From positions 1-61,311 of IMG/VR virus record IMGVR_UViG_3300043399_000562: 61,311 nt of DNA; one strand, written 5' to 3'. Source of the stretch: a virus. Its lineage: Duplodnaviria; Caudoviricetes. Position 1 is the first letter of the stretch. Every line of letters begins with the position of its first letter. Below the pieces are notes generated by a model. It was not told the origin of the DNA, did no database searches, and worked only from the letters and a program-made list of their open reading frames with translations. Positions 27,785-47,940 of this stretch are shown in pieces. Position numbers and translations under genes: made by a program.

Positions 27785-28077
27785 TTGCTGGTTCCTTCCT
27801 GCAGACGGGCTTCAGCCTTCAGGGCCGCGTACGCAACGCAGTCCTCCAAGCTGTCTCGATGCGGCTCGACCCGCTGACGATCGCGCACGTCCTTGAGGAT
27901 CTGCAGAAGCAGCCAGCCCTCGGACTCGGACAGGTCACGGCCGGTGATGACGTTGAACGCCTGGACCGTCTTGCCCATTGATCGCTCGCCCTCGGGGCGG
28001 TCGTACGTGGATGCCCGATCGCGCATGTGCTTGGCAGCGGCTTCGAGAATTGTCGGTGCGTACGGAGCGGCGTTCAT
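27781..28077 (-). CDS. DUF6378-like protein
   Basis: RASTYD..GERSM...GWLL...LK..R...HRDSLEDCVAYAAL. Confidence 0.7.
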   Translation of the reverse strand: MNAAPYAPTILEAAAKHMRDRASTYDRPEGERSMGKTVQAFNVITGRDLSESEGWLLLQILKDVRDRQRVEPHRDSLEDCVAYAALKAEARLQEGTSK

Positions 28078-28238
28078 AGCTCAGAGTCCTCTCGGGCCTT
28101 CTGGTGAGTGGCAAAGATCCACCCGTTCATCCAGACGACCCACTTGTAGATGTCAGGTGGGTACGGGCAAGCGTCTGGCGGCTTGCCCGATCGGGCAGCA
28201 TCTGCGCCTTGCTGCCAGACGCTGCTGCCGTGGCTCAC
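28074..28238 (-). CDS. 54-aa Rmf/CrpP-like small protein
   Basis: WQQGADAARSGKPPDACPY...WMNGW; GTGA and ATGA overlaps (hand translation). Confidence 0.65.
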   Translation of the reverse strand: MSHGSSVWQQGADAARSGKPPDACPYPPDIYKWVVWMNGWIFATHQKAREDSEL

Positions 28239-28516
28239 AGTTCGTCGTCATCGTCCAGGTCGGACGACGCTGCAGCCTTCTTGGCAGGCACCGCCTTCTT
28301 CTCGGGCGCGGCCTTCTTCGGCGGTGCCGACACGAGGCGGCTTCGCTCGATGTGGGCACACAGCGCAGCCTTGATATCGTCGAACTGCGACTCTTCCCAG
28401 AACATCGCACGCTTGTCGCGCTCGATCGGCTCGATGCCGAGATCTTCGGAGATGAACTTCGCCGAGATGTTCAGGCCAATGGAGGACTGAATTTGGGGGA
28501 GGGTGATGTTGGGCAT
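28235..28516 (-). CDS. Small protein with K/A-rich tail
   Basis: Has its own sigma70 promoter; ends DDDDEL. Confidence 0.75.
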   Translation of the reverse strand: MPNITLPQIQSSIGLNISAKFISEDLGIEPIERDKRAMFWEESQFDDIKAALCAHIERSRLVSAPPKKAAPEKKAVPAKKAAASSDLDDDDEL

Positions 28517-28556
28517 GGGGGCCTTTCGTTGCTGTCAGACGCTGCTGACGGTGTGG

Positions 28557-28585
28557 ATGATAGGTCGCGACAGGTGACGAGTCAA
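28557..28585 (-). promoter_or_regulatory. Sigma70 promoter
   Basis: TTGACT-17-TATCAT on the minus strand. Confidence 0.7.
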
Positions 28586-28597
28586 CAGAATGTGGAA

Positions 28598-29290
28598 TCA
28601 AAGTTCGTCGTCATCGTCCTGAACTGCCGGCTTTTTCGGCGGTTCATTTTGCACTTTCGATGCTGATTTTTTCACCAGATCAGCGGGTTTTTTGCCACCC
28701 GTGGCATCGCGGATGGCAGACCAGGCTGCAATCATCACCTTGGCCTGATGCATCGCATCGTCCAGCGCGTTGTGGTGCGTACCCTCGCGCTTCACGCTGT
28801 CCATGTTGAAGTCCACGAGCGACTCGGCTGCATCGATGAGCGTGCGCATGTCGCGGATCTTCCAGTAGGCCCCGGACCAAGGGGGCTCAAGGCCAACGCT
28901 GCCCACGTCGATCGAGTGCTCGATCAGCGTGATGTCGAACGTCGCCCCGTTGCCCCATGGGCGCGGGCAACCAAGGCTGCGGACGAACGTGACGAAGTTC
29001 AGCATTGCGCTCGGCAAGGCCATCTTTCGTTCCCGAGCGGCATCACCAGTCTCGAAGATCCGCTGTGCCCCCTTCGCCTGCGTGATCCACCAGGCGATCG
29101 TGCTTGCGCTCGGCTTGCAATGCTTGATGGCTGAGTCCGGGTCGATCTCCTGATAGAAGGTCGGGCCGACCTTGCCGGTGTCGCGGTTGAAGGCTACGGC
29201 TCCCACGCTCAGGATCGGGGCGTTGTACTTCGTGCCGAGTGTCTCTAGGTCGATCGACACATCGGTCCACGGGAACGGATTGGTGCTCAT
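28598..29290 (-). CDS. 3'-5' exonuclease (DEDDh, exonuclease VIII-associated type)
   Basis: IDLETLG, WGNGATFD, RDMRT, HNALDDA. Confidence 0.85.
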   Translation of the reverse strand: MSTNPFPWTDVSIDLETLGTKYNAPILSVGAVAFNRDTGKVGPTFYQEIDPDSAIKHCKPSASTIAWWITQAKGAQRIFETGDAARERKMALPSAMLNFVTFVRSLGCPRPWGNGATFDITLIEHSIDVGSVGLEPPWSGAYWKIRDMRTLIDAAESLVDFNMDSVKREGTHHNALDDAMHQAKVMIAAWSAIRDATGGKKPADLVKKSASKVQNEPPKKPAVQDDDDEL

Positions 29291-29473: not shown

Positions 29474-29628
29474 CGCTGCAGAGTTGCGGGAACGCCGATG
29501 CTCATCAGTGTCGTGATCAGGTCGATCGGCACCCCAAGGTGATCGGCCACCTCGGACAGTCCGGCGATCAGCAGGCCGATGAGGATGACGCACAGGGCCA
29601 CGATCAACATCAGGACAACTGGCCTCAC
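29470..29628 (-). CDS. 52-aa membrane peptide
   Basis: GTGA-coupled; hydrophobic N-terminus (hand translation). Confidence 0.45.
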   Translation of the reverse strand: MRPVVLMLIVALCVILIGLLIAGLSEVADHLGVPIDLITTLMSIGVPATLQR

Positions 29629-29867
29629 AGTTCATCGTCCTCTTCTTCCGTGTAGCTCGCAGTGACCTCGATCGAGCCGTCGGCCAGGAAGCTGTACGTG
29701 ATCGAGCCATCGAGCCCCGGCCGGAACCACGGCACGATGCCGCCCATCACAGGCACGTCGCGCCGTCTGAGGGCAGACGTGACGTGGTTGCCCAGCGCGA
29801 TGCTGTTCTCGCACAGCCGCAGACGATCGACGTCGTTCTTGATGACCTTGATCTTGACGGTCGTCAC
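29625..29867 (-). CDS. Hypothetical protein
   Basis: GTGA-coupled with SD; ends EEEDDEL. Confidence 0.7.
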   Translation of the reverse strand: MTTVKIKVIKNDVDRLRLCENSIALGNHVTSALRRRDVPVMGGIVPWFRPGLDGSITYSFLADGSIEVTASYTEEEDDEL

Positions 29868-30844
29868 AGCGCATCGTCTCCTTCAGCGATGGCCGACAGC
29901 GCCATGGCTGCAGTCATGATGTGCTTGCGCCGCAACCACAAAGACGCTTCCCAAGCCCGCGCCCGGTCGTCCTTGTCGCCAGCGTCGTCGCTCGACTCGA
30001 TGACGTTGATCCGCTTGAACGTGAAGGAGTCGGTCAAGGTGAACTCGACCGTCTCGTCCTGGTCGGTGATGTGGAGTTCGCGGATCTCGTAGCCGTCGTC
30101 CAGCAGGCGCAGCGCGTTGTCGCTGATCATGCTGACGTTCTTCATCCGAACGACCCGGGCCGACTCTTCCGCATCGTCCTTGAAGAGCACACCGCTGTAG
30201 CTCGGCACGTAATCGTGCTCGTCGTTGCGCACGAGCGGCAACAGGATCTCCGAACCGACGCGCACCTCCGGATCGACGTAGGAGGCAATCGAGGGTGAGG
30301 CGCCAGTGACAACGTCCAGCAGCGACATCACCTGATCAATCATCTGGTCGCACCGACGCGCACTCGAAGACCAGATGATGAAGGTCGAGTTCGGCATGAA
30401 CGTGACGAGGCAGTAGCTGCGCCGAATGAATGCCCTCGGAAGAAGATCGACCTCGACCTCGTCGCGCAGTTCTCGGTACTCCTTCTTGCTGACCTTCCGA
30501 TGCTCGCGACCCTCGATGTCGGCCACGCGCTTCTGCAGATGCTCGTCGCGCACCTTCGACGGCAGCACGCGATCAGCGATCTGCACGCACCACGTCACCG
30601 AGTTCGCCTGGTCGAGCGGGTAGTCCACGCCGGACAGACTGTCGATGAAGCCGATCGACTGCCATTGCGTCGGCGACGGGTCCCGAAACAGCAGCTTCTC
30701 GACCGGCTTGTCGGACCAGCCTTGTGAGCGCATCTCGATGGCCAGTTGCTCGATCTTGCGATAGGCCGCGGTGGACTTGCCGTCCACGTCCACCAGCTTG
30801 AAGATTGTCGCCGCGTTGAACGGCGGGAACTGAGGCTTGCTCAT
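29864..30844 (-). CDS. rdgC: RdgC-like recombination-associated protein
   Basis: QSIGF, RVLPSKV, VSKKEYRELRDEVEVDLLPRAF, SSARRCD. Confidence 0.75.
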   Translation of the reverse strand: MSKPQFPPFNAATIFKLVDVDGKSTAAYRKIEQLAIEMRSQGWSDKPVEKLLFRDPSPTQWQSIGFIDSLSGVDYPLDQANSVTWCVQIADRVLPSKVRDEHLQKRVADIEGREHRKVSKKEYRELRDEVEVDLLPRAFIRRSYCLVTFMPNSTFIIWSSSARRCDQMIDQVMSLLDVVTGASPSIASYVDPEVRVGSEILLPLVRNDEHDYVPSYSGVLFKDDAEESARVVRMKNVSMISDNALRLLDDGYEIRELHITDQDETVEFTLTDSFTFKRINVIESSDDAGDKDDRARAWEASLWLRRKHIMTAAMALSAIAEGDDAL

Positions 30845-31421: not shown

Positions 31422-31660
31422 GTGTCCTTGTCCTTCCGAGGTGGTGAGGGGCGTTCCAGTTGTGGAATCGACGGGCCGGGAGTGTAGGCCGAGCAGTAGA
31501 AGACCTTCTCGTTGATGACTGCGATCCCGGCCATCATGCAGTCGGCCATGACCTCCAGCTTGTGATACGTGGCGTCCCGGTGGTTGACCAGGACGATCGA
31601 GCCGGCCACCACGACCGCACAGACGGCTGCCATCAACAGACTGACCAGACGGGCGCTCAC
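31418..31660 (-). CDS. Small membrane-anchored protein
   Basis: GTGA-coupled; N-terminal hydrophobic segment. Confidence 0.55.
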   Translation of the reverse strand: MSARLVSLLMAAVCAVVVAGSIVLVNHRDATYHKLEVMADCMMAGIAVINEKVFYCSAYTPGPSIPQLERPSPPRKDKDT

Positions 31661-32604
31661 AGCGAATCGTCCCCGTCTTCCTTGCCGATCAGCGCATCGG
31701 CCTCGTCCAGCACGTCCTGCATGTCGTTGCCAACCCGCATCGTGCGGATGTAGTCGGCCATCTTCTTGATCACCGACTTCGCTGCAGGCGTCCAGGGATC
31801 TGCTGCGGTGGCAACCGCTGCCGGTGCCGAATCGGAAGGTGCAGCTTCTTCGACAGCCTTCTTCTTCGGTGCGGCCTTCTTGACGTGCTTGCCGGTGATC
31901 TTCGTCTTGCCCTTGGCCTCGGCTTCCTTGGCGCCGGCCTTCAGCACCGTCGCGGCTTCCTTTCCGTGCTTCTTGATCGTCTGCACCGCGAGCGTCGCAC
32001 TCACCTTGCCGCTCGTCACCATGTCGCGCACAGCCTTCGGAGCCGCCAGCAGTTCGAACAGGTTCGAGACGTAAGCCGTCGTGTAACCCAGCTTCTGCGC
32101 GATCGTCTTGTTGTCGTAGCCGTAGCCCTGCAGCCGCTTGCAGACGGTCGCGATCTCGAAGGGCTGCAGGGGCTTGCCGCTGTTCGACGTGACTAGGGCG
32201 ACGGTCAGGTCCTCGGCACTGGTGCCGGGCGGGTGGACGATCACGGGGATCAGTTCGATCGCAGCGCCGGCATCGCGGGCCTTGGCGACCGCGGCGTGGC
32301 GGCTGTGGCCGTCCGTGACGTATACGAAGTTCTTGCCGTCCTCCTTGACCACGTAGCCGGCCATCGGCTTCGTCTTGTCGTAGCCCCGCTCGACCATCTG
32401 CGAGGCGAGCCACTCGATGTGCTCGTCGTAGGTCTTGTCGTGGACCCGGACGTTGAAGCCCGGGGCGATCCGGATCTCGTCGTAGGGGACCATCCACAGG
32501 TCGGTGCTCTTGGCGCCTGCGTCCTTGGCCATGCCCTTGACGCTGCCCTCGTTGGCGGCATCGAAGAAGGTGATCGCGTCGGCCTGGTTAGTTTCTTCGG
32601 TCAT
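31657..32604 (-). CDS. ParB-like protein (ParB/Srx domain + HTH)
   Basis: GFNVR, VTDGHSRH, SNSGKPL.PFE, IAQKLG. Confidence 0.8.
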   Translation of the reverse strand: MTEETNQADAITFFDAANEGSVKGMAKDAGAKSTDLWMVPYDEIRIAPGFNVRVHDKTYDEHIEWLASQMVERGYDKTKPMAGYVVKEDGKNFVYVTDGHSRHAAVAKARDAGAAIELIPVIVHPPGTSAEDLTVALVTSNSGKPLQPFEIATVCKRLQGYGYDNKTIAQKLGYTTAYVSNLFELLAAPKAVRDMVTSGKVSATLAVQTIKKHGKEAATVLKAGAKEAEAKGKTKITGKHVKKAAPKKKAVEEAAPSDSAPAAVATAADPWTPAAKSVIKKMADYIRTMRVGNDMQDVLDEADALIGKEDGDDSL

Positions 32605-33496: not shown

Positions 33497-33553
33497 GTGG
33501 TAGGGCGGTGCTGCGGGTGGAGGGATCAACAGAATGTGGAATCGACTGTAGAC

Positions 33554-34638: not shown

Positions 34639-35021
34639 GCTGATGCTTTCAGGTTGTTGCGGGGATGACGTTGAGCAGTGTTGCCGCTCGGGAAGATGTA
34701 GGTGCAGCGCGAGTCACCCTTGTTGCGCTTGATGGTCAGGACGGTCGGCGGCGTCTTGATGCCTGGAAAGAAGCGCGCACTGCTTGCCATCCTCCAATCG
34801 GGTGGGTCGTCCACCTCGATCCGATGCAGCGTGTAGTAAGCACCTCGGTCTGTCTCGTTGTCGAAGTAGCCCTCGGCCGCCACGCAGGCCCTGACCATGT
34901 TGCTGTAGACCCCAGCGAACTCGAAGGTGCTTTCGAAGTCACTGGTGTGCCGTATCAAGAGGATCACTTTGCTCTCCGTGCCGTGTGTTCGATGAACACG
35001 ATGGCTGGACTGTAGTGACAA
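34635..35021 (-). CDS. Hypothetical protein (start uncertain)
   Basis: First ORF of the leftward operon; true start probably lies downstream of the promoter. Confidence 0.5.
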   Translation of the reverse strand: MSLQSSHRVHRTHGTESKVILLIRHTSDFESTFEFAGVYSNMVRACVAAEGYFDNETDRGAYYTLHRIEVDDPPDWRMASSARFFPGIKTPPTVLTIKRNKGDSRCTYIFPSGNTAQRHPRNNLKASA

Positions 35022-35037
35022 GGCACGAACGTGTCAA
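35009..35037 (-). promoter_or_regulatory. Leftward sigma70 promoter with TGACA-N11-TGTCA dyad
   Basis: TTGACA-17-TACAGT. Confidence 0.65.
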
Positions 35038-35063
35038 ATGTTGACTAGATTGTGGGGTCTTGG

Positions 35064-35309
35064 GTTCAAATCCGAATTTCAAATTTGGAACGGGCGGGGT
35101 TGTTCAAGTAAGCCGGAAGGAGGGTGTCAACGACGCTCAGACCAGGCACGACCAGGGCCTGCAGATCGAATCGATTCTGAACCAGGCAGCCAGCCATCGA
35201 TCACTTCAGATTTGGGGGATGACCAGGCAAGGGCCGGCCTTGATCTGAAGGATCGAGTTCAAATCCGAATTTCAAATTTGGAACGGGCGGGGTTGTTTAA
35301 GTAAGCCGG
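35064..35309. repeat. 53-bp direct repeat, two copies (35064-35116, 35257-35309)
   Basis: GTTCAAATCCGAATTTCAAATTTGGAACGGGCGGGGTTGTTYAAGTAAGCCGG; one mismatch. Confidence 0.9.
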
Positions 35310-35426
35310 GAGGAAGGTTGAAAAACCAGGCCGACGATCCACCAGACCAGGCGGCGGCCGGCCCGGTTTTCCAACCCGCACGCGCGCTCGCGCGTATGGC
35401 GGTCAACGCGGAGAAAGCTGCCTAGA

Positions 35427-35494
35427 CAACGATTGACCAGTCAACGATTGACCAGTCAACGATTGACCAGTCAACGATTGACCAGTCAACGATT
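35427..35494. repeat. 15-bp tandem repeat, 4.5 copies
   Basis: CAACGATTGACCAGT, perfect copies. Confidence 0.95.
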
Positions 35495-35578
35495 TCTCCC
35501 TGGTGGCGGGGACACTGGCAGGGCATGGCATGCAGGGTGATCGGTGCGGCAGACAATGCCCTAGTGCTCTGCAGGGGC

Positions 35579-35609
35579 TTGACAAGCCCGGACAGTGTCA
35601 GGGTATGAT
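35579..35609 (+). promoter_or_regulatory. Rightward promoter with 19-bp spacer and dyad
   Basis: TTGACA-19-TATGAT. Confidence 0.55.
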
Positions 35610-35634
35610 CGACGCATCCCCACTCAGGACCCCG

Positions 35635-35841
35635 ATGATGAACAAGCCCGATCGATCCCTTCGAAGCGAGTTCGATGCGCATGCGCGCATGGATGACGTG
35701 CACGCATGGGCAGCTTTAGACATGCGTAACGCGGGGTGGAAGGTAGGGCGCCATGCCCTGCATCCCATGCCCCGCGCGCCCCGTCAACCCGTCCGGCCGG
35801 CCGGCCTTCTCGGCTGGCTGGCATCCGTGCTTGCCCGTTGA
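35635..35841 (+). CDS. Hypothetical protein (cos-proximal island)
   Basis: AGGA SD downstream of the promoter. Confidence 0.55.
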   Translation: MMNKPDRSLRSEFDAHARMDDVHAWAALDMRNAGWKVGRHALHPMPRAPRQPVRPAGLLGWLASVLAR

Positions 35842-35891
35842 GTCCACATACGGGCAATACTTCAACCCCTGAGACACAGGAGCTACACACC

Positions 35892-36377
35892 ATGGCAACA
35901 CGCAAAGCCCCCACCATCCGCGCCACCATCGGCAAGGCCAACCCGCGCGCCGAAGCACAGCAGCCGACTACCCCCATGGTCGGGGCCGGTTCTCTCGTTG
36001 CCATGCGTGACGGTCAGATGGTGGAAGTGATAACGGTTCGAACCTATTTCTCTGCCAAGGGAACCGGCATGCAACCCGTCCGGGCTTGTGTCTGGGTCAA
36101 GCCAGCCACCCCGGGGGGCGAGTGGTTCACAGGCCGCGGGTCGGCTGGCGGATGCGGGTATCACAAGGAATCCGCAGCTATTGCCGATGCTGTCTCGGCT
36201 GCAGGATTCGAATTGTGGGGAAACCCCTATTCGTCAGGCAGGGATGAAAACCCAGATATGAAAAAGCGTTTCCATTTCGGTGGTACGGGTTCATCCGCAT
36301 ATGAGGAGATTTTCAAGGCGATCGGCCGGGCTGTCGGATACAAGGGCCGGATGGTCTGGGTTTCCCATGGTCTGTAA
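35892..36377 (+). CDS. Hypothetical protein
   Basis: AGGAG SD; GSAGGCGYHKESAAIADA. Confidence 0.75.
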   Translation: MATRKAPTIRATIGKANPRAEAQQPTTPMVGAGSLVAMRDGQMVEVITVRTYFSAKGTGMQPVRACVWVKPATPGGEWFTGRGSAGGCGYHKESAAIADAVSAAGFELWGNPYSSGRDENPDMKKRFHFGGTGSSAYEEIFKAIGRAVGYKGRMVWVSHGL

Positions 36378-36396
36378 TTCCACAAACGGGCAATAG

Positions 36397-36957: not shown

Positions 36958-36959
36958 TC

Positions 36960-39384: not shown

Positions 39385-39827
39385 CACTCGAACAAATCAA
39401 GGCAGCCGTGAAAGCCGGATATCGTGTCTGCCATGAGAACCCGGGTTATGTCGTCTCATGTGACAGCCTCGGACAATGGCATATCACCTACACCCCGAAT
39501 GGCTATTGCATCGGATTGACCCATCGAGATGGCGTGACGATGAATGGCCAGCCGGATCGGTTCTTTATCGATCGGTCGACCCCGGGGGCAGAGATTCGTG
39601 CCATGCGCGCCGAGCTTGCATCCGCACAAACACTGGCCGAGCTTGACCGGCTGTATTCCGAATGGATCGGATATAGCCGGGTTGACGATGATCGGGAAGC
39701 CGGTATCGATACCGACGAATCGGACCTTCGCGACACACTGACTGGATATATCGAAGAACTCCGGGCTTCTTATTCATGGCGGGTTACTTGGGGAAGTCTA
39801 CAGTCTGACTATCGTTTCGACGGTTGA
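39381..39827 (+). CDS. Hypothetical protein
   Basis: MTLEQIKAAVKAG...IGLTHRDG. Confidence 0.7.
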   Translation: MTLEQIKAAVKAGYRVCHENPGYVVSCDSLGQWHITYTPNGYCIGLTHRDGVTMNGQPDRFFIDRSTPGAEIRAMRAELASAQTLAELDRLYSEWIGYSRVDDDREAGIDTDESDLRDTLTGYIEELRASYSWRVTWGSLQSDYRFDG

Positions 39828-39849
39828 CCCGATAAGCCACTAGACAACT

Positions 39850-39957
39850 CAGGCCCCCGCATGGGGGCTTTGTCGTTTCTAGGCTGCCCGTGCATTAGTT
39901 CGCATGGGTTGACCCACTACAGCCAGCAGGCCCCCGCATGGGGGCTTTGTCGTTTCT
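39850..39957 (+). terminator. Duplicated intrinsic terminator (31 bp, two copies)
   Basis: CAGGCCCCCGCATGGGGGCTTTGTCGTTTCT at 39850-39880 and 39927-39957. Confidence 0.8.
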
Positions 39958-39960
39958 GGG

Positions 39961-40049
39961 GCTGGCGGGCTGGCGGGGTGGCGGGCTGGCGGGCTGGCGG
40001 GCTGGCGGGCTGGCGGGCTGGCGGGCTGGCATGGCTAGCGGGCTGGCGG
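39961..40049 (+). repeat. GCTGGCGG octamer array (8 perfect + 3 variant units)
   Basis: Read directly from the sequence. Confidence 0.95.
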
Positions 40050-40240
40050 GCTGAACTAATTCGCCATGGGCAGGGGATGGCAGGGGTCGACCGATTAAAA
40101 CAGCCTAGGATCGATCGGGCAACATGGCATGTAGGGCACCCTCACCTAGCCCGATTGCGTGGCCTAGCGATTGATCTAGCGATTCCTATGACTATCGATC
40201 ACATGGCATGGGTCCCTCTCCGGTCAGGCCGCCGATCGGG

Positions 40241-40252
40241 GGTGCGCAGAGC
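40241..40252. other. cos site (12-nt cohesive end GGTGCGCAGAGC)
   Basis: Matches the 12-nt cos I recall for phage Chi; flanked by the inverted repeat CGATCGGG/CCCGATCG; genome has a lambda-type terminase. Confidence 0.8.
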
Positions 40253-40845
40253 CCCGATCGCCTGAAATTTTCTATCAAAATTCATCATTTTATGAAAAAT
40301 TGAATCAAAAGTTGCAACGCGACCATTCCGATGGCCCGCCACATGGTGTTCGACGCGCGATTCGAGTCCGATGGTGCCCGAGCCGGGTGTCGGTCTGGCG
40401 GATGCAGACGCGCATCCAGTCCAACGGATTGGCCGCTAAACGCACGGATTGACATTCAGTCCAATGGATTCGACTGATCTCGGGTACTGTGCTTCTGACG
40501 ATTTCTACCCCCTCCCCTGGGGGTATAAAGGAAATTAGGTTTTTAGTTGTAACTTTGTAACAAAGTTGTGTTCAATGAACACTACAGTTTGTTGAATGCT
40601 GCAAAATTAAGCAGCAATTCTCTCTTAACCCCCCATCCCCCCCTAGAAACAGTCAGCTAGTAAGCATGAAAAGTACGTGAATCCAAACCATCGGATCAAA
40701 ATGCGACTTTTGTTGCGAGATGATCGAGTCGATGATTGAGGGATGATCATGTGTAACGGCGGGGGTAAGGGGTGCTAATTTTGTTGCGCAAATTCGTCAT
40801 TTGTCGCAACACTTCGGCCCAACGGCAGCAACGTCGAGCAGACGT

Positions 40846-40867
40846 AAAAAAGCCGCCCGAAGGCGGC
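40846..40867 (-). terminator. Intrinsic terminator of the primase/MTase operon
   Basis: GCCGCC-TTCG-GGCGGC-TTTTTT on the minus strand. Confidence 0.85.
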
Positions 40868-40902
40868 CGTTTGATTCATTGGATTGAACTTGATTCTGTG
40901 GA

Positions 40903-41748
40903 TTAGAGTTCGTCTTCAGAGTTCGTCCGGCCCATCCCGCACTTCCCTGTAAGCGAGAATGAACTGTGCCGCGACTTCCGCGACGATCGCGTTTCCGTAG
41001 GCGCGCAGTCGTCCCACTCGGGCGGCAGCCCCATGAGCCAGCGGGAATGCTCCGGATTCAACTGGCCGCCACTTTCCATCCCGGCAGGCAAGCCAGTCAA
41101 CATCTCTCCAGAAGCCGTTAGTCGCGCCTTCTGCAAAAGAACCACTGCGTGATTGAGTGTGATGTTCTTTGTTGTGAAAGTCTGCGAAGGGTGGCGAATA
41201 GAGTCGTTCGTTGTTGGAGTCGGCCAGCCCGCCAGGTTGGCCACCCGAGGCAACTGATCGAACCGCTGGCGCCCGTTGTCCGAACGCGGAGTGATGTCGC
41301 AACCGCTGTCTTTCCAGTCGCGAGACGCTGGAGTCGGCCACCCAGTACAGCCGCTGTCTGATGTGCGGAGCACCGACGCCCGCAGCGCAGAGATCGAATT
41401 GCCCGAAGGCGTATTTCTCGGCTTCCATGTCAGCGCGTACAAGGTCGATCCACGCGAGGCCATCCTTGCTTGCAACCTGCTCTCCAAGCACCGTGTCAGG
41501 TCGCAACTCGCAGATGAGGTGAAAGAGGGCTGGCCAAAGATGCCGCTCATCAGCAAACCCATCTCCTTTGCCTGCCGCGGAGAAAGGTTGACACGGGCAG
41601 CTTGCTGTCCAGACCTTGCGATCATCGCGCCAGCCGGCCCGTCGCAGTGCGTGGCTCCAGACGCCGATTCCGGCGAAGAAGTGGCACTGATCGTATCCTC
41701 GAAGGTCATCTGGTCTGACATCTTCAATGCTTCTTTCGTCAACATCAC
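40903..41748 (-). CDS. Out-of-frame nested C5-MTase partner (beta-like) polypeptide
   Basis: 281-codon open frame; WPTP repeats and [16 protein letters not shown]; start uncertain. Confidence 0.6.
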
Positions 41749-41833
41749 CGGGAGCGATCAACCCCTTGCGGATGAGGCGGCGCAACCACTCGGCCGTGTA
41801 CTCGTCGATCTCGTTGTAGTACGCGCCGCTCAC
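40916..41833 (-). CDS. DNA cytosine-5 methyltransferase (alpha-like)
   Basis: [29 protein letters not shown]. Confidence 0.9.
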
Positions 41834-44454
41834 AACTCGTCATCCTCTTCCTTGAAGCCATCGACTTCACCGGCAAACACCATCGACCGCAGGGCAACCC
41901 CTCGAATCAGCACGACGCCTCCGCTCTTGATCGCAAAGCGCACTCCGATGGACCGGACGATCTCCGACTCCATCTCGTCGTACAGCTTCTGCTTGCCCAG
42001 CGGCTTGCGGTTCGACTCACGGCACCACGATGCGTAGGCCACGTAGAACGCGGCCCGGTGCAGATCCACACCAGGGAACTCACCGATCACGCAGACGTCA
42101 CGGTCGTAGATGAACTCCATGAGCGTGCTGCTGCGATGGCGCCACTGGCTCATCAGCTTGTGATGCGGGCCGGTCAGTACGAAGTGGCCACGTTCGAGCA
42201 GACGCTTCGCGCCAGTCATGAACTTGGCAGCCACGCCGGGCAACTCGTTGGCGATGATCTTCTCGGCTAGGTCAGGGTCAATGTCATCGTCCCGGCCGAT
42301 CAGCGAGTTCCTGAACTCCATCAGCAGCCATCGCGTATAGAACGCCTCGGTGTGATCGCGAGTGAAGATGAAGTTGTTGGCGTTGAAGATGTGCCCAGCA
42401 GATGACCGGAACTGGAAGGGCATGTGATTCGGTCGCCGAGCCGTGAGCGGATCGCGTCCGGTGACGCGCTTGAATGCGGCAGCGTCGATCGGCACCTCGT
42501 CGCTCAGTTCGCCGACGACGTTGATGCGCTTGGCGGCCAGGTCAGCAAGGTAATACTCCCTCGACCACACGTCCGGTGAGATCGAGCCGATCGCATTGGC
42601 AGGAAGCATCGCGCAGATGATCTTCATGATCGTGCCCTTGCCGGCACGCCCCTTGCCCTTCATGAACAGCACCTTCTCGTACTTGCAGGCGACGCCGAGA
42701 AGGCAGGCGCCTCCATACTCTTCGAGCAGATGTTCCTGTTCCTGTCCTGCATCGCCGTCGAACGCTGCGGCCATCAGCTTGTCCCACAGTGGCGTGGGCA
42801 TAACACGAGGCACGACCTGACTGAGAACACGTTGCCGATGATGGGCACCGAGTTCTTCCTTCAGGACAACGCCACCCTCGATCTTGTAGAACCGCTTCTC
42901 GCAGGCCATGCCGACAGGAGCCTGCTCGAAGAACTCTTCGTTCCCTTCGGCAGCAATCGAGTAGGCGTGATTGGCGATCGCCAGGTAGTCGGTGCGACGG
43001 TTGCAGTTGTCCATGCCATCGAACTCACGGGCAACCTCAACCTCGAATTCGTTCGGCGCCTTGCCGACCCACACACGATCTCGCTTGTCGTAGACCCACA
43101 GCTTGCCTTCGACGCCAACAGCATCGACGCCAGACTTCTCTTCGATGATCTGCAGCAAGCGCCGAGCGTAGTTCGCGTGAGTGGGCTCCCCATGCTCGCG
43201 ACTCTTCTTGCGCGCCATCGCTATCGAGCGTCGGACATCGGCGATTCCGATCTTGCACTTGCGTGCCAGTTCGCGCGCCAGCACGGCTTCGTCCATGGGC
43301 TCAAGCTGGGCTTCGGCGATACGCTCGATCAAGACCTTGCGGTCGTCCCGCGTGGCATCAGACGTGGCGATAGCGGCCGAGATGTCCTCATAGGCTTGAC
43401 GCTCTGCCTCTTCGTCTCGCACGGGTGTGCGCGAAGCGTCCCATCCAGCTTCCTTGGCCAGGTGGAACAGCGACCCGAGCGTGACGGTCTTCGTGCCTTT
43501 CTCACGCTTGAGCGATCTCCAGTCGCGAGCGAAGTCGCGAGAGTCGTACTTGCCTTCTTCTGACTTCTCTGCCCACTGCTGGGCCAACTCTTCTGCGCAG
43601 ATCCATCCGGTCCACTTCAGACCCGCGAGAACGTCGAGGTATTCCTCGCGCGAGCAGTCCGGGCTGATGTGTTGCAGGGCCTCACACACCCGCTCGACCT
43701 CGGCATCTGACTCTTCTGGCGGCATCTGCAGCGCCAGCACGTCACCCGCCCCACTGCTAGAGCCATCGTCTGCATCGCCGACCTTCGTCCAGCCCCGCTC
43801 CAAGCAGATGCGCTCGAACTCGCGGCAGACACCCCGGGCCTGATCGGCATCGATCGTGGGTAACTCGCTGACATCCATGCACAGCGGCTCTTCGAAGTCG
43901 CCGGGCCAGGTGTAAGGCTTCAGCGTCTCCGGATGGATGTGATAAGCGACGAACTGCTGACCCTCTCCGAGCACTTCGACGCGCTGCTTGAGCGGCTTGC
44001 CGTCCTTGCGACGCGGGTTCTGAGGGTCGATGAACGACGCTGAGACGATCTTCGTGAATGGCTGGTCGGTGCGGAAGACCAGCAGCCGCTTTGGTGCCTT
44101 GCCGATGCGCAGCGGAGCATCGTCGAGGTTGTCACGGATGAAGCGTTCCATCTCATCGCAGATGCGCTCGTCCAGGCAATCGATGTCGATGGCCGGTGTG
44201 TGCTTCGTGAGGATGCCGATGCCGTCGCCATTGGAGACGTTCGGCAGCGTCACCGATCGACCGTTGTGCTCGACCTTGTGCGTGCCGTGCAGGAAGGATT
44301 GGTACTGGACCGGCGAGGACGGGGCGACTTCCTGCCAGTTGGTGACCTTCGGGCCTTTGCCGCCCTGTGGGATTGGGACGATGGACCATCCGAGGATGAC
44401 CAGCTTTGCCCCGACTGTTGCGAAGGGGCCTTTCATGCTGCGTCTCCTGGCCAT
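41830..44454 (-). CDS. Primase-polymerase / PriCT / D5-like SF3 helicase
   Basis: AIDID, QFVAYHIHP, TLGSLFHLAKEAGW, GKGRAGKGT. Confidence 0.9.
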   Translation of the reverse strand: MARRRSMKGPFATVGAKLVILGWSIVPIPQGGKGPKVTNWQEVAPSSPVQYQSFLHGTHKVEHNGRSVTLPNVSNGDGIGILTKHTPAIDIDCLDERICDEMERFIRDNLDDAPLRIGKAPKRLLVFRTDQPFTKIVSASFIDPQNPRRKDGKPLKQRVEVLGEGQQFVAYHIHPETLKPYTWPGDFEEPLCMDVSELPTIDADQARGVCREFERICLERGWTKVGDADDGSSSGAGDVLALQMPPEESDAEVERVCEALQHISPDCSREEYLDVLAGLKWTGWICAEELAQQWAEKSEEGKYDSRDFARDWRSLKREKGTKTVTLGSLFHLAKEAGWDASRTPVRDEEAERQAYEDISAAIATSDATRDDRKVLIERIAEAQLEPMDEAVLARELARKCKIGIADVRRSIAMARKKSREHGEPTHANYARRLLQIIEEKSGVDAVGVEGKLWVYDKRDRVWVGKAPNEFEVEVAREFDGMDNCNRRTDYLAIANHAYSIAAEGNEEFFEQAPVGMACEKRFYKIEGGVVLKEELGAHHRQRVLSQVVPRVMPTPLWDKLMAAAFDGDAGQEQEHLLEEYGGACLLGVACKYEKVLFMKGKGRAGKGTIMKIICAMLPANAIGSISPDVWSREYYLADLAAKRINVVGELSDEVPIDAAAFKRVTGRDPLTARRPNHMPFQFRSSAGHIFNANNFIFTRDHTEAFYTRWLLMEFRNSLIGRDDDIDPDLAEKIIANELPGVAAKFMTGAKRLLERGHFVLTGPHHKLMSQWRHRSSTLMEFIYDRDVCVIGEFPGVDLHRAAFYVAYASWCRESNRKPLGKQKLYDEMESEIVRSIGVRFAIKSGGVVLIRGVALRSMVFAGEVDGFKEEDDEL

Positions 44455-45386: not shown

Positions 45387-45485
45387 CCACCATTCATCGC
45401 GTATCATCGCGATTCCACTGTCGGGTGACGCGCCCACCATTCGGCAGTGTTCATCACGAGGGCATCACCTAGTACGGAGCAATCC

Positions 45486-45833
45486 ATGAGCATCACCCTG
45501 ACCTACACCTTCGCCAACGAAGCCGAACTGCAGCAGCACCTCACCTCGCGCGGCGCCGCGGCCCCCGCCGAGAAGACCGCGCCGGCCCCGGCACCGGAGA
45601 AGAAGGCGGCTGCGCCGGCCGTCGAGAAGAAGGCCGCCCCCAAGAGCGAGCGCAGCCGCGAAGAGATGGTGGCGGCACTGAACGAGGTCAAGGAGGCCAA
45701 GGGCGCCGACGCGGCCAAGGGCATCATCCGCGACACGGGCGGCGTGGCAAAGATGGCCGAGATCCCCGACAACAAGATCGATGCCGTCTACGAGGCGGCG
45801 AAGAAGGCTATGGAAGCGGACGAAGGGATCTGA
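45486..45833 (+). CDS. Hypothetical protein with A/P/K-rich linker
   Basis: GGAG SD; precedes DUF2800 as in Chi-like phages. Confidence 0.75.
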   Translation: MSITLTYTFANEAELQQHLTSRGAAAPAEKTAPAPAPEKKAAAPAVEKKAAPKSERSREEMVAALNEVKEAKGADAAKGIIRDTGGVAKMAEIPDNKIDAVYEAAKKAMEADEGI

Positions 45834-45935
45834 TCACTCCATGCGTCTGAAGTGTTCCCCGCTGCCCCGGGGCACTTCGCTGGCCGTGTGATCACACTTC
45901 ACTGTGGATGATATGACCCCGGCACTGCCAGCAAA

Positions 45936-47246
45936 GTGAACTTCGATCTCAATGCCATCGCGGCGGCCTACAACAACGGCGGCCACTCAATTTTTGGGCC
46001 ATCCTCCAGCAGCATGTGGCTGGTGTGCTCGGGCTCGCTGATACCGAACATCCTGGCGCAAGACGACGGGACGATCGAGGCGGCTTACGGGACCGTCGCA
46101 CATGAAGTCGCAGAGGCGTGGCTGACGTTGCGACGCAAGCCGAAGCACATGATCGGCAAGACCTACATCGTCTATTCGGGCACATGGGGTTACGCCATAA
46201 CGGTCGATCATCAGATGATCGACTACGTTCAGGAGTCAGTTGATCGCTGCATCCTGCTGCCTGGCCTGCAGATGACCGAGCAGCGCGTGGACTTCTCCCG
46301 ACTGACCCCGATACCGAATCAGGGCGGAACACTCGATTTCGCGTCGATCGACGGCGACTACGTCAACGTCATCGACCACAAGTTCGGAAAAGGGGTCATG
46401 GTCTATGCGCAGAACAACACTCAGGCCATGTTGTATGCGCTTGGCCTTGTCTACAAGCACGACAAGGCGTTTGGCGGCAAGTACGACATGCGTCGCTTCC
46501 GCCTTGCGATCCACCAGCCGCGCCTCGACCACTTCGACGAATGGGAGTGCTCGCGAGACGACCTGATGGAGTTTGCGGGCTATGTCCGCGAACGTGCAAA
46601 GGCCGCCTGGAAGCTGGATGCGCCGAGAACACCCGATCCGAAGGCATGCCAGTTCTGCAAGGTGAAGCAGACGTGTGCTGCGAATGCACGCATGCAGTTG
46701 CGCCTGGTTGCCGATCAGACCGATGCAGCGTTTGCCGAATCGACGGCAGAAGAGATTCGCGAGTTCAAGCAGGAGTTGGCGGCTGATCTTCTCAGTGTCA
46801 GTCCCGTCGATCCTCTCTCGCTGACAACCGAAGAACTCGAACGACTGCGTCCATACAAGCGGATGGTCGAGGGCTTCTGGAAGACCGCGGATCACGAACT
46901 GCTGAGGCGTGCTCTGAGCGGTGTCCCGATGACTCGCTACAAGGCTGTCGAGGGTCGCTCGAATCGTGTGTTCAAGAACCGCGATGAAGCCGCCACGCAT
47001 CTGATCAAGCACGGCTGTGATGAGAAGGATGTGATGGTCACACAGGTCGTCTCGCCGGCAGAGGCTGAGGCACTGTTGATCAAGGCTGGCCACCGTCGCA
47101 AAGATCTCCCCGAATTGCTGGATGGGCTCGTTCGCAAGCCTCCCGGCAAACCGACGCTCGCTCCGCTTCACGACAAGCGGCCGGCGTTGGAAGACCAATC
47201 GGCGATTGCGTTCGCCGATTCAACCGATGACTACGAGGAATCGTGA
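45936..47246 (+). CDS. DUF2800 Cas4-like PD-(D/E)xK exonuclease
   Basis: HS..GPSS..WLVCSGS, GTLD, IDHKFGKG, IHQPR, CQFC, VEGRSNR. Confidence 0.85.
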   Translation: MNFDLNAIAAAYNNGGHSIFGPSSSSMWLVCSGSLIPNILAQDDGTIEAAYGTVAHEVAEAWLTLRRKPKHMIGKTYIVYSGTWGYAITVDHQMIDYVQESVDRCILLPGLQMTEQRVDFSRLTPIPNQGGTLDFASIDGDYVNVIDHKFGKGVMVYAQNNTQAMLYALGLVYKHDKAFGGKYDMRRFRLAIHQPRLDHFDEWECSRDDLMEFAGYVRERAKAAWKLDAPRTPDPKACQFCKVKQTCAANARMQLRLVADQTDAAFAESTAEEIREFKQELAADLLSVSPVDPLSLTTEELERLRPYKRMVEGFWKTADHELLRRALSGVPMTRYKAVEGRSNRVFKNRDEAATHLIKHGCDEKDVMVTQVVSPAEAEALLIKAGHRRKDLPELLDGLVRKPPGKPTLAPLHDKRPALEDQSAIAFADSTDDYEES

Positions 47247-47247
47247 T

Positions 47248-47940
47248 ATGGCACTCAAGAGCGTCAAGAAGGGCAAGAACTTCGAGGTATTCGAGGACGA
47301 CCGTGGTGAGAAGCTGATCCGCATCGACAAGGTGCGCGTCAGCTACCCGGCATTCGGTCGGCAGAAGGAACAGGAAGACGACAACGGCGGTACGAGCAAG
47401 TCGTGGGGCGGCGTCGCCATGCTCCCGAAGGCCACGCATGTCGAGGCGAAAGATGCGTTCATGTCGATCCTGAACGCGATCATGGACAAGGAGAAGGTCA
47501 AGATCCCTCCCGAGTTCCGGTGCATCAAGAACGGTGATGACAAGGACAAGGAGGAATACAACGGCCATTGGCTGATCAACTTCTCGGACAAGAAGCGGCG
47601 GCCTGCCGTACGCGACGAGCACGGTCGGCTGATTATCGATCCGGAGCGTGCGCACGATCACGAGTACATCGAGGGCGCTCTGGACGCGATCGACGAGATG
47701 TTCTTCGGTGGCGTGTGGATCTCGGTGCTGCTGCGCCCCTGGTATTTCAACGGCAAGTCGCGTGCGTCGGCGAAGACGTATCCGAAGCGTCTGTGCTGCG
47801 GATTCAATGGCGTCAAGTTTGACCGGACCGACAAGCCGTTTGGCAATGGCCGCATCGACGACAGCGACGCATGGGGTGAAGCCGATCAAGATGGCTCGTC
47901 TCACGCCGGGAACGATCGGGACGAAGACGATGGGCTGTGA
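47248..47940 (+). CDS. DUF2815 ssDNA-binding protein
   Basis: VRVSYP, PFG, acidic tail; follows DUF2800. Confidence 0.8.
   Translation: MALKSVKKGKNFEVFEDDRGEKLIRIDKVRVSYPAFGRQKEQEDDNGGTSKSWGGVAMLPKATHVEAKDAFMSILNAIMDKEKVKIPPEFRCIKNGDDKDKEEYNGHWLINFSDKKRRPAVRDEHGRLIIDPERAHDHEYIEGALDAIDEMFFGGVWISVLLRPWYFNGKSRASAKTYPKRLCCGFNGVKFDRTDKPFGNGRIDDSDAWGEADQDGSSHAGNDRDEDDGL

What the first reader, a model, noticed from the sequence alone, without database searches (positions are those of the whole stretch)
28074..47940. Shared acidic C-terminal 'DEL' tag on many unrelated early and replication proteins
Seen C-termini: EDSEL (28074), DDDDEL (28235), DDDDEL (exonuclease, 28598), EEEDDEL (29625), EGDDAL (RdgC), DGDDSL (ParB), SEDEL and GPDEL (both MTase frames), EEDDEL (primase-helicase), DEDDGL (SSB), plus GEESL (5771). 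Six cases could be a by-product of translational coupling (SD inside acidic codons plus a GTGA/ATGA overlap). The exonuclease, however, is followed by a promoter and the two MTase frames by a terminator, and there GACGAACTCT is duplicated so that both frames end in D-E-L. This points to selection on the peptide. Inference: a phage-wide docking, localisation or stability tag analogous to the SSB acidic tail.
Basis: partly seen in the sequence, partly recalled or inferred. Interest (0 to 1): 0.8.

Follow-up and report, generated by a model that had tools for sequence, protein, structure and literature searches.

The report
Shared acidic docking tail on phage proteins
About a dozen unrelated DNA-handling and DNA-packaging proteins of this phage end in the same short acidic peptide capped by a leucine, and in related phages the cap changes in all of them together, which points to one shared, still unidentified binding partner.

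Summary

It is not a by-product of gene overlaps:
- In the window and 15 related complete or partial phage records, tails occur in 132 of 1060 genes against 9 expected.
- They are equally frequent in coupled and uncoupled genes (p = 0.31).
- They use all three stop codons, and the terminal Leu uses all six Leu codons.
- They are conserved in whole orthologue groups: SSB 16/16, primase-helicase 15/15, RdgC 10/10, ParB 8/8, exonuclease 4/4, TerS 11/12.

The cap residue co-varies within genomes:
- Leu here
- Val in Chi and KPN N137
- Ile in Aeromonas phage BUCT551
- Phe in T7

The same exonuclease and methylase families lack the tail in unrelated phages.

Best reading: an enlarged version of the T7 gp2.5/gp4 acidic-tail docking system, read by one phage-encoded partner.
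- The partner is not identified.
- The polymerase is unlikely, because PolA and PolB are swapped among tail-bearing relatives.

My literature searches found no description of this system. Earlier agents of this scan reported the same phenomenon on other Chi-like genomes.

The parts
47248..47940 (+). T7 gp2.5-type SSB (DUF2815/Enc34 type), tail ...DRDEDDGL
   Evidence: - Family: PF10991, phrog_112.
- AF2 model: pLDDT above 85 for residues 1-200, then 62, 54 and 50 for the last three 10-residue blocks.
- Foldseek: Enc34 ORF6 5odj, E 6.8e-16; T7 gp2.5 1je5, E 1.9e-5.
- 117 of 120 listed homologues carry the tail.
41830..44436 (-). Prim-Pol/PriCT-2/DUF5906 primase-helicase, tail ...FKEEDDEL
   Evidence: - Pfam, phrog_1156.
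- 15 of 15 orthologues in the 16 genomes carry an acidic tail ending in L (clusters C27 and C53).
- Its stop overlaps the methylase GTG start.
28598..29290 (-). Rv2179c-like 3'-5' exonuclease, basic/Pro-rich linker plus tail ...QDDDDEL; not coupled
   Evidence: - PF16473, E 1e-43.
- 81-nt gap with a promoter-like site after the stop.
- AF2: core confident, last 30 residues pLDDT 62, 61, 56.
- 104 of 119 listed homologues carry the tail.
- 78 of 80 more distant IMG/VR homologues do not.
29864..30844 (-). RdgC-like protein, tail ...AEGDDAL
   Evidence: - PF04381.
- 10 of 10 orthologues in related genomes.
- All 13 other listed database homologues carry the tail: 12 end in L, 1 in F.
31657..32604 (-). 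ParB-like protein, tail ...EDGDDSL
   Evidence: - phrog_1033, E 1.4e-63.
- 8 of 8 orthologues end in L; 5 of 8 meet the acidic criterion.
28235..28516 (-). 93-aa protein of unknown function, Lys/Ala/Pro linker plus ...DLDDDDEL
   Evidence: - No Pfam or PHROG hit.
- 6 of 6 orthologues carry the tail (C41).
- Linker sequence shown.
28074..28238 (-). 54-aa RMF-like protein, tail ...AREDSEL
   Evidence: PF04957, E 1.2e-7. Tail. Conservation in relatives not examined.
29625..29867 (-). 80-aa protein of unknown function, tail ...TEEEDDEL
   Evidence: No family hit.
40916..41833 (-). C5 cytosine DNA methylase with an added tail ...[12 protein letters not shown], followed by a terminator-like hairpin
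   Evidence: - phrog_363, E 4.5e-83.
- Homologues in PVN06, ST13-OXA48phi12.5 and epsilon15 end ...AYMEAIK...AYMGVA and ...VVSYGR, without a tail.
- Terminator-like hairpin.
40903..41748 (-). Overlapping +1-frame ORF (281 aa) ending ...NSEDEL; status uncertain
   Evidence: - phrog_1008 and phrog_31772, E about 1e-32.
- Open in all 5 phages examined.
- The middle part evolves as if the +1 frame were coding.
- The 10-nt repeat 13 nt apart places D-E-L in this frame too.
45486..45833 (+). 115-aa protein upstream of DUF2800 (Chi gp4 position), tail ...MEADEGI
   Evidence: phrog_7721. 11 of 15 orthologues carry the tail (C19). Not coupled: 102-nt gap.
54936..55532 (+). Terminase small subunit, tail ...PDDEDDDKTI
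   Evidence: - Clusters with the phrog_141 TerS of a relative.
- 11 of 12 orthologues carry the tail (C25).
- TerS also carries the tail in Chi, N137, BUCT551, MA12, FoX4 and JS26 and in phiAxp-2, BUCT552 and phiWae15.
5550..5771 (+). 73-aa protein just after the major capsid gene (the position of lambda FI), Pro/Ala linker plus ...GKGEESL
   Evidence: - phrog_7559.
- 17 of 17 orthologues end in L; 13 of 17 meet the acidic criterion (C0).
- Ends in V in Chi and N137 and in I in BUCT551 (135-aa gene after the capsid gene).
48303..50432 (+). Family-B DNA polymerase, weak tail ...CRKVSDL (one acidic residue)
   Evidence: - phrog_1252, E 5.9e-189.
- Weak match to E. coli Pol II, E 3.5e-5.
- 7 of 16 orthologues meet the tail criterion and 12 of 16 end in L (C13).
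45936..47246 (+). DUF2800 nuclease; here an acidic end without the cap (...DDYEES). Carries the tail in relatives.
   Evidence: PF10926, E 4.8e-71. 10 of 16 orthologues carry the tail (C15).

Best explanation
The tail is a short linear docking motif: a flexible linker, two to five Asp/Glu residues, then one aliphatic residue carrying the free C-terminal carboxylate. It has been added to many unrelated proteins that act on the phage DNA:
- SSB, primase-helicase, polymerase and nucleases
- RdgC, ParB and the methylase
- the terminase small subunit
- a small head-module protein

All of them most likely plug, one at a time, into the same pocket of one phage-encoded reader. This concentrates replication, recombination, modification and packaging proteins at one place, and lets them exchange by competition.

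This is the logic of the T7 gp2.5 and gp4 tails, enlarged from two proteins to a dozen.

Shown here:
- selection acts on the peptide
- the tail is modular and can be gained
- it is predicted to be disordered
- the cap residue changes in concert within genomes

Inferred:
- that the tails bind a protein
- that there is a single reader

My ranking of reader candidates (inference):
1. the concave groove of the T7-type SSB
2. the primase-helicase
3. the large terminase or another conserved protein
4. a host protein

The polymerase ranks low.
For: 1. Enrichment.
- 132 of 1060 genes in 16 genomes carry the strict tail, against 9.1 expected. 169 carry the loose tail, against 21.9.
- Controls with the same pipeline: lambda 0 strict of 51 genes, T7 0 strict of 46.

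2. Not a coupling effect.
- The tail occurs in 82 of 553 genes with a gap of 15 nt or less and in 87 of 507 others (p = 0.31).
- Stop codons in tail genes: TAA 60, TAG 9, TGA 100.
- The terminal Leu uses all six codons.
- Acidic codon usage equals the genome-wide usage.
- After an acidic stretch the last residue is L in 150 of 227 genes, against 74 of 833 otherwise.

3. Conservation by orthologue group, with none in the other structural proteins, VRR-NUC (0 of 16) or the large terminase (0 of 16).

4. Concerted cap switches.
- Chi: 8 proteins end in V. KPN N137: 6 in V. BUCT551: 7 of 7 in I.
- MA12, FoX4 and JS26 and BUCT552 and phiWae15 are mostly L; in Carli all 6 acidic-tail genes end in L. 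T7 gp2.5 and gp4 end in F.
- Concordant non-L pairs: 47 observed, against a mean of 5.9 and a maximum of 20 in 20000 within-family permutations.
- Aeromonas phages include both an I type and L types. Enterobacterales phages include both V and L types. This argues against a conserved host reader.

5. Modularity.
- The methylase tail is absent from 3 homologues in unrelated phages.
- The exonuclease tail is absent from 78 of 80 more distant IMG/VR homologues.

6. Disorder. AF2 gives pLDDT 50-62 for the last 30 residues of the SSB and the exonuclease.

7. Published precedent.
- The acidic tails of T7 gp4 and gp2.5 bind basic patches of gp5 and compete with each other (passages read).
- In crystals of Enc34 ORF6, two other DUF2815 proteins and T7 gp2.5, the C-termini lie in the concave sheet of the neighbouring molecule (passages read).
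Against: - No binding was tested.
- No reader was identified. A scan for columns invariant in L-type genomes but changed in both the V and I types gave 0-2 columns per family. Apart from the tail caps themselves, no family stood out.
- The permutation test ignores phylogeny. The non-L signal rests on about three lineages (Chi plus N137, BUCT551, T7). Several genomes are mixed: PM87 has F, I, L and L; phiAxp-2 has L and M; the window itself has 2 tails ending in I.
It is family A in Chi, BUCT551, MA12 and Carli.
- Several client families lose the tail in some genomes: DUF2800 lacks it in 6 of 16, including the window, and SNF2 in 11 of 16. So the tail is not essential for each protein.
- The link between a tailed exonuclease and a T7-type SSB rests on one independent positive record (G017) and 14 of 15 negatives, all confounded by relatedness.
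Confidence: 0.7

Rival explanations
1. By-product of translational coupling. Purine-rich Shine-Dalgarno sequences for the next gene, read in frame, give Asp/Glu codons, and a GTGA or ATGA overlap forces a codon ending in G or A (often CTG, Leu) before the stop.
For: - In the window, 7 of the 12 tailed genes have a stop that overlaps or nearly abuts the next start: 28074, 28235, 29864, 31657, 41830, 54936, and 5550 with a 2-nt gap.
- GGAG lies inside the RdgC tail codons, 10 nt before the next GTG.
- The rare Leu codon CTA is over-used at the cap, 0.17 against 0.03 genome-wide. This fits CTATGA-type overlaps shaping codon choice.
Against: - Tail frequency does not differ between coupled and uncoupled genes (p = 0.31).
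- 87 of 507 uncoupled genes carry the tail, where about 10 are expected.
- Relatives G001 and G002 mostly use TAA after the tail.
- The cap is V or I in other lineages.
- The exonuclease, SSB, methylase and 45486-45833 in the window are followed by gaps of 81-137 nt or by a terminator.
Confidence: 0.02
2. Independent autoinhibitory DNA mimics. Each acidic tail folds back on the DNA-binding surface of its own protein, as proposed for T7 gp2.5, E. coli SSB and T4 gp32. There is no shared reader.
For: - Most tailed proteins with a recognisable family are DNA-binding or DNA-processing proteins.
- Truncating the Enc34 ORF6 tail changed its discrimination between dsDNA and ssDNA (passages read).
- The tails are predicted to be disordered and tethered by linkers.
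Against: - More than ten unrelated folds would have no reason to demand the same cap residue.
- They would have even less reason to change it together, to V (Chi, N137) or to I (BUCT551).
- Small proteins with no recognisable DNA-binding domain also carry the tail (28235-28516, 29625-29867, 5550-5771).
Confidence: 0.1
3. A stability or turnover tag. The acidic-aliphatic C-terminus is read by a protease or protects against one, timing the abundance of early and DNA-metabolism proteins.
For: - C-terminal residues are known degrons in bacteria (my own knowledge, not tested here).
- The tag sits on many early proteins.
- All these phages encode an S49/ClpP-like protease (annotations).
Against: - The cap differs between phages of the same host genus or order, so a conserved host protease is an unlikely reader.
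- The phage protease is annotated as the prohead maturation enzyme.
- The SSB and the primase-helicase carry the tail in every genome where they were found, and in T7 these tails are docking elements.
Confidence: 0.08
4. The tails dock on a host protein, for example a partner of the host SSB tip, the sliding clamp or a chaperone, and not on a phage protein.
For: - The tail resembles the acidic tip of bacterial SSB in charge and in its hydrophobic end (my own knowledge).
- Tailed exonuclease homologues are very common in metagenomes: 104 of the 119 listed. This shows that the tail is widespread.
Against: - V-type and L-type phages both infect Enterobacterales, and I-type and L-type phages both infect Aeromonas.
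- The same exonuclease family lacks the tail in 78 of 80 more distant IMG/VR homologues. Of the 15 tail-less records searched, 10 are classed as proviruses.
Confidence: 0.1

Closest known systems
Phage T7 acidic C-terminal tails of gp2.5 (SSB) and gp4 (primase-helicase), read by basic patches of gp5 DNA polymerase
   Same: - The SSB has the same fold (Foldseek hit to 1je5, E 1.9e-5).
- Both the SSB and the primase-helicase end in a disordered acidic tail with the same hydrophobic last residue: F in T7, L here.
- The T7 tails compete for one reader (passages).
   Different: - About a dozen proteins carry the tail here, against two in T7. They include RdgC, ParB, a methylase, the terminase small subunit and a head-module protein.
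- The cap is aliphatic, not aromatic.
- The polymerase here is family B without a thioredoxin-binding domain.
Enterobacter/Hafnia phage Enc34 ORF6 (DUF2815 SSB; PDB 5odj, 5odk, 5odl)
   Same: - Closest solved structure (E 6.8e-16, TM 0.86 normalised to the target).
- Acidic, unstructured C-terminus. In the crystal it lies in the concave sheet of a neighbouring molecule (passages).
   Different: - In the passages I read, the paper treats the tail as a feature of the SSB only. Those passages do not mention that other proteins of the phage share it.
- The last 11 residues, including the cap, were not visible in the crystal.
Bacterial SSB C-terminal tip (SSB-Ct) interaction hub
   Same: An acidic peptide with a hydrophobic end and a free carboxylate, on a flexible linker, used for protein docking (my own knowledge; one title seen in the listing).
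   Different: - The topology is inverted. In bacteria one protein (SSB) carries the tip and many partners carry pockets. Here many proteins carry the tip.
- Bacterial-type SSBs match the model only weakly (E above 0.01).
Phage T4 C-terminal clamp-binding peptides on the polymerase and late-transcription proteins
   Same: Several unrelated phage proteins share a short C-terminal peptide that docks on one hub.
   Different: - The T4 hub is a sliding clamp. I did not search for a clamp gene in this window.
- As I recall, the T4 motif is more hydrophobic.

Membership tests
T7-type acidic-tail docking system (gp2.5/gp4 to gp5) | SSB with the gp2.5 fold and a disordered acidic C-terminal tail ending in a hydrophobic residue | tested here: met
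   - PF10991.
- AF2 model with a low-confidence tail.
- Foldseek hits to Enc34 ORF6 and T7 gp2.5.
- Tail DEDDGL.
T7-type acidic-tail docking system (gp2.5/gp4 to gp5) | The replicative primase-helicase carries a tail of the same kind with the same last residue | tested here: met
   EEDDEL in the window. 15 of 15 orthologues carry it. The cap follows the SSB cap in Chi, N137 and BUCT551.
   The window polymerase has no Pfam family-A match. It matches phrog_1252 and, weakly, E. coli Pol II. Relatives with tails have either family A or family B.
No other tool tests binding.
Bacterial SSB-Ct hub | Bacterial-type homotetrameric OB-fold SSB carrying the tip, with pockets on the partners | tested here: not met
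   The fold is T7/Enc34-type; bacterial SSBs score E above 0.01. Here the tip sits on the would-be partners.
Casjensviridae-like (Chi, AH2, Enc34 group) siphoviruses | Shared gene order: primase-helicase, regulator, small protein, DUF2800, SSB, polymerase, VRR-NUC, SNF2 helicase, TerS, TerL, W-like adaptor, portal, protease, decorator, capsid | tested here: met
   - The window's order follows.
- The same order is annotated in Chi, PM87, FoX4 and BUCT551.
- HMM-defined orthologues are present in 25-29 of 29 genomes for most of these families.
Casjensviridae-like (Chi, AH2, Enc34 group) siphoviruses | Formal taxonomic placement (genome-wide similarity thresholds) | not tested
   - No genome-wide clustering was run.
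- Megablast found no close cultured relative.
- The best cultured SSB match was 42.8% identical.

The most novel reading that the evidence does not exclude
The tails form a lineage-specific address code.
- One phage-encoded hub reads 'acidic run plus cap-COOH'.
- Through it the hub assembles a single DNA factory that physically links replication, recombination, partition, methylation and genome packaging.
- Any newly captured gene joins simply by acquiring about 6 codons, as the methylase and the exonuclease appear to have done.
- The choice of cap (L, V, I, M, F) keeps the factories of co-infecting relatives orthogonal.
- The hub may be the SSB groove itself. The tail would then be a ticket into an SSB-based condensate and a lever to displace SSB from ssDNA.
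Probability: 0.3. Interest if true: 0.9.

Novelty: new variant of a known kind. Interest (0 to 1): 0.8.

Why it matters
- **Organisation.** It would show that a whole family of common siphoviruses, which includes Salmonella phage Chi, organises its DNA metabolism and packaging through one short peptide and one reader. That is a far larger use of the principle than the two-protein T7 case.
- **Annotation.** A tail marks a protein of unknown function as a member of the DNA factory. In this window that applies to 28235-28516, 29625-29867, 45486-45833 and 5550-5771.
- **Experimental handle.** It offers a simple way to find the hub: peptide pull-downs, or cap-swap suppressor genetics.
- **Portable tag.** It offers a small tag for recruiting cargo to phage replication sites.
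- **Gene capture.** It suggests how captured genes are wired into a phage, by adding about six codons.

Tried and rejected
- **Complex prediction.** I asked for PolB plus the SSB core plus the exonuclease tail.
- **Close relatives via RdgC.** Searches in viral and metagenome contigs found none.
- **Megablast of the region against cultured phages.** It found only methylase and ThyX fragments.
- **Rfam scan of the window.** It was made to look for the ncRNA reported upstream of DUF2815 genes. There were 0 matches.
- **Reader hunt by co-varying columns.** I looked for columns at least 90% conserved in 22 L-type genomes but changed in Chi, N137 and BUCT551. Apart from the caps themselves, only 0-2 columns per family qualified, and no family was enriched. 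Inconclusive.
- **My first guess that the methylase is frameshifted.** Rejected: phrog_363 covers the main frame end to end.
- **A nucleotide-level motif as the cause.** I considered this because 28235 and 28598 share 20 of 21 nt at their ends. Rejected because the other tails use different codons and relatives vary synonymously.
- **Gain of the RdgC tail.** This could not be tested because only tailed, phage-like homologues were retrieved.
- **Earlier notes of the scan.** A look-up for this genome returned nothing. A look-up by the SSB sequence also returned nothing.

Full report
**What the window is.**
The window is a complete virus record of 61311 bases with direct terminal repeats. My own gene call gives 77-78 genes.

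Gene content and order match the Chi/AH2/Enc34 group of siphoviruses (Casjensviridae):
- Prim-Pol/DUF5906 primase-helicase
- a small regulator
- DUF2800 nuclease
- DUF2815 SSB
- polymerase
- VRR-NUC nuclease
- SNF2 helicase
- small and large terminase
- a lambda-like head module

This rests, compared with the annotated records of Chi and AH2. No close cultured relative exists. Megablast found only methylase and ThyX fragments, and the best cultured SSB match is 42.8% identical.

**The observation.**
I add two: the 115-aa protein 45486-45833 (EADEGI) and the terminase small subunit 54936-55532 (DDDKTI).

In the window, 9 of 78 called genes match [DE][DE].?[LIMVF]-COOH, against 0.66 expected from internal positions of the same proteins. 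By a looser rule, 11 of 78 match, against 1.59 expected. The looser rule is: last residue L, I, M, V or F, and at least two acidic residues among the four before it.

The methylase was missed by my gene caller and is counted separately.

Several tails sit on Lys/Pro/Ala-rich linkers. AF2 models of the SSB and the exonuclease give confident cores and pLDDT 50-62 for the last 30 residues.

**Is it a coupling artefact?**
Within the window alone this cannot be excluded. Seven of the twelve tailed genes have stops that overlap or nearly abut the next start.

I therefore collected relatives:
- one contig through the primase-helicase
- 24 loci through an alignment of SSB homologues
- the whole records of 15 of them

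Over the 16 genomes:
- 132 of 1060 genes carry the strict tail against 9.1 expected. 169 carry the loose tail against 21.9.
- The tail is present in 82 of 553 genes whose downstream gap is 15 nt or less, and in 87 of 507 others (Fisher p = 0.31).
- Tail genes end in TAA 60, TAG 9 and TGA 100 times, like other genes.
- The terminal Leu uses all six codons, and acidic codon usage equals the genome average.
- The rare Leu codon CTA is raised (0.17 against 0.03). This is the only trace of overlap pressure, and it acts on the codon, not on the residue.
- After an acidic stretch the last residue is L in 150 of 227 genes, against 74 of 833 otherwise.
- Lambda and T7, run through the same pipeline, give 0 strict tails of 51 and 46 genes.

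The genomes are related, so the pooled p-values overstate independence. However, all but one genome (G005, 2 strict tails against 0.61 expected) show a clear excess on their own.

**Which proteins carry it.**

| Orthologue group | With the tail |
|---|---|
| SSB | all 16 end in L, I or M (14 by the strict script count) |
| Primase-helicase | 15 of 15 |
| RdgC | 10 of 10 |
| ParB | 8 of 8 end in L (5 meet the acidic rule) |
| Rv2179c-like exonuclease | 4 of 4 |
| Terminase small subunit | 11 of 12 |
| Small protein after the capsid gene | 17 of 17 end in L (13 meet the rule) |
| Family of 28235-28516 | 6 of 6 |
| Family of 45486-45833 | 11 of 15 |
| DUF2800 | 10 of 16 |
| Family-B polymerase | 7 of 16 (12 end in L) |
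| SNF2 helicase | 5 of 16 |
| Capsid, portal-like (1 of 16), tail, large terminase, VRR-NUC, MazG-like, integrase | absent |

In database searches:
- 117 of 120 listed SSB homologues carry it (95 L, 14 I, 7 M, 3 F among all 120).
- All 13 other RdgC homologues listed carry it.
- 104 of 119 listed exonuclease homologues carry it.

**Concerted change of the cap.**
In named phages the same set of proteins carries the tail, but the last residue differs by phage.
- Chi has V on the primase, gp4, the DUF2800 nuclease, the SSB, TerS, the protein after the capsid gene, gp42 and gp1.
- Klebsiella phage KPN N137 has V on six proteins.
- In Aeromonas phage BUCT551, all 7 acidic-tail genes in the 26.7-kb stretch examined end in I.
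- The other two Aeromonas phages examined, BUCT552 and phiWae15, have mostly L.
- MA12, FoX4 and JS26 have mostly L, and in Carli all 6 acidic-tail genes end in L.
- T7 has F on gp2.5 and gp4.
- Mixed cases exist: PM87, phiAxp-2, and two I caps in the window.

In a table of 29 genomes and 10 client families, concordant non-L pairs number 47. Shuffling caps within each family across genomes gave a mean of 5.9 and a maximum of 20, and 0 of 20000 shuffles reached 47.

This control ignores phylogeny. The signal comes from about three lineages, but in each of them six to eight unrelated proteins changed.

Both V and L types infect Enterobacterales, and both I and L types infect Aeromonas. A conserved host reader is therefore unlikely (inference).

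**The tail is a module that can be gained.**
- The window's methylase ends ...[12 protein letters not shown]. Its homologues in Edwardsiella phage PVN06, Klebsiella phage ST13-OXA48phi12.5 and epsilon15 stop at ...AYMEAIK...AYMGVA and ...VVSYGR.
- Of 80 more distant exonuclease homologues from IMG/VR, 78 are core-only and 2 carry linker plus tail.
- Among 17 of those records, the family PF10991 (T7-type SSB) was found in the one complete tail-bearing record (G017). Its SSB ends DDDDEM and its DUF2800 protein ends ETDDL.
- PF10991 was found in only 1 of the 15 tail-less records, and there both the weak DUF2815-like protein and the exonuclease lack a tail. The other tail-bearing record is a 43%-complete fragment with no match.
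- This association is suggestive only. It rests on one independent positive and is confounded by relatedness.

**What is known.**
- The SSB model matches Enc34 ORF6 (5odj, E 6.8e-16) and T7 gp2.5 (1je5, E 1.9e-5).
- The Enc34 paper (PMC5686142, passages read) describes an acidic unstructured C-terminus whose traceable part lies in the concave sheet of a neighbouring molecule. It says the same is seen in two other DUF2815 crystals and in gp2.5.
- A 2026 preprint on the T7 replisome (10.64898/2026.05.20.726333, passages read) summarises two points. The acidic tails of gp4 bind two basic patches of gp5. The gp2.5 tail competes with gp4 for gp5.
- A DRT4 preprint (10.64898/2026.10.21.760695, passages read) notes a disordered charged tail on another DUF2815 SSB.
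- Six searches found no paper describing a tail shared by many proteins of these phages. For these I saw listings and abstracts only, apart from the passages named above. Papers outside the held library were not searched.
- Earlier agents of this scan reported the same phenomenon on other Chi-like genomes. I reached my reading before seeing those notes, and I repeated the key tests here.

**Mechanism.**
The most economical reading is a docking peptide read by one phage-encoded pocket that recognises charge, cap and free carboxylate. The many clients exchange on it by competition.

- The T7 reader, the polymerase, is a poor candidate here. The window and 18 other genomes have a family-B enzyme. 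Chi, BUCT551, MA12 and Carli have a family-A enzyme at the same position. Tails persist in both groups.
- The SSB and the primase-helicase are present and tailed in every genome examined. The published crystal contacts make the SSB groove the leading candidate.
- The tails on the small terminase and on the protein at the lambda-FI position suggest a link to packaging, so the large terminase remains possible.
- A search for columns that change with the cap type singled out no family.

**The methylase locus.**
- It matches other PHROG families annotated as methyltransferase.
- It is open in all five phages examined.
- In its middle part it evolves as the coding frame. There the fastest-changing position is main-frame position 1, and +1-frame identity is 0.5-0.87 against 0.2-0.6 for the main frame.
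- Its C-terminal stretch is not conserved elsewhere.
- In the window, a 10-nt repeat displaced by 13 nt gives it D-E-L as well.
- This fits tail selection on both products, but it does not prove it.

**Verdict.**
The feature is real, selected at the peptide level and conserved across the family. It is a much enlarged variant of a known principle.

Noticed in passing
window 40903-41833 (-); also L095-L098: The C5 methylase gene holds a second ORF in the +1 frame over almost its whole length.
- Both frames are open in all five phages examined: the window, vB_PL1, PVN06, ST13-OXA48phi12.5 and epsilon15.
- Each frame matches its own PHROG 'methyltransferase' families.
- The substitution pattern switches from main-frame coding (first ~100 and last ~30 codons) to +1-frame coding in the middle.
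- This suggests an overprinted gene or a double frameshift.
   Followed up: partly
window 28582-28597 and 33526-33541 (-): An exact 16-nt repeat occurs twice, each time a short distance after a stop codon. It contains a -35-like TTGA(C/T). The first copy is part of a promoter-like site scoring 10 of 12. These may be phage early promoters with an operator.
   Followed up: partly
window 48303-50432 versus L082:6906-8942, L086:6761-8866, L083:20714-22795, L087:10213-12357: At the same position of an otherwise syntenic replication module, some relatives carry a family-B polymerase and others a family-A polymerase. The family-B group is the window, 15 metagenomic records, JS26, FoX4 and phiAxp-2. 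The family-A group includes Chi, BUCT551, MA12 and Carli. This is a non-orthologous replacement.
   Followed up: partly
SSB homologues P0003-P0122: 66 of 120 SSB tails hold a second, internal copy of the motif (acidic residues, optional G, then L, M or F) 6-30 residues before the end, for example ...DDGM....DDDGL. The SSB may therefore be bivalent.
   Followed up: no
exonuclease homologues P0157, P0164, P0211, P0221, P0227: Five of 119 listed exonuclease homologues end in an acidic run capped by Trp (...GEDW...AEDW...EEEQW...EDEQW). This may be a further cap type. Their genomes could not be inspected.
   Followed up: no
L090 (Xylella phage Sano) and L094 (Stenotrophomonas phage Suzuki): In this sub-group the SSB ends ...DDIGL. 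The small terminase holds (D/S)IGL followed by an acidic run (...DDIGLDEDE...SIGLDEDEDE). This looks like a different, partly internal version of the motif.
   Followed up: no
window, whole: 67 of 77 called genes end in TGA (8 TAA, 2 TAG). The related records G001 and G002, of similar G+C, mostly use TAA (42 of 72 and 37 of 70).
   Followed up: no
window 28074-28238 (-): A 54-aa early protein matches the ribosome modulation factor family (PF04957, E 1.2e-7, above the curated cut-off) and carries the tail.
   Followed up: no
window about 35000-40900: This stretch has lower G+C (0.54-0.58) and only weakly scoring, mostly TAA-terminated small ORFs without family hits. It lies between the leftward early operon and the methylase. 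It may be foreign or non-coding DNA.
   Followed up: no
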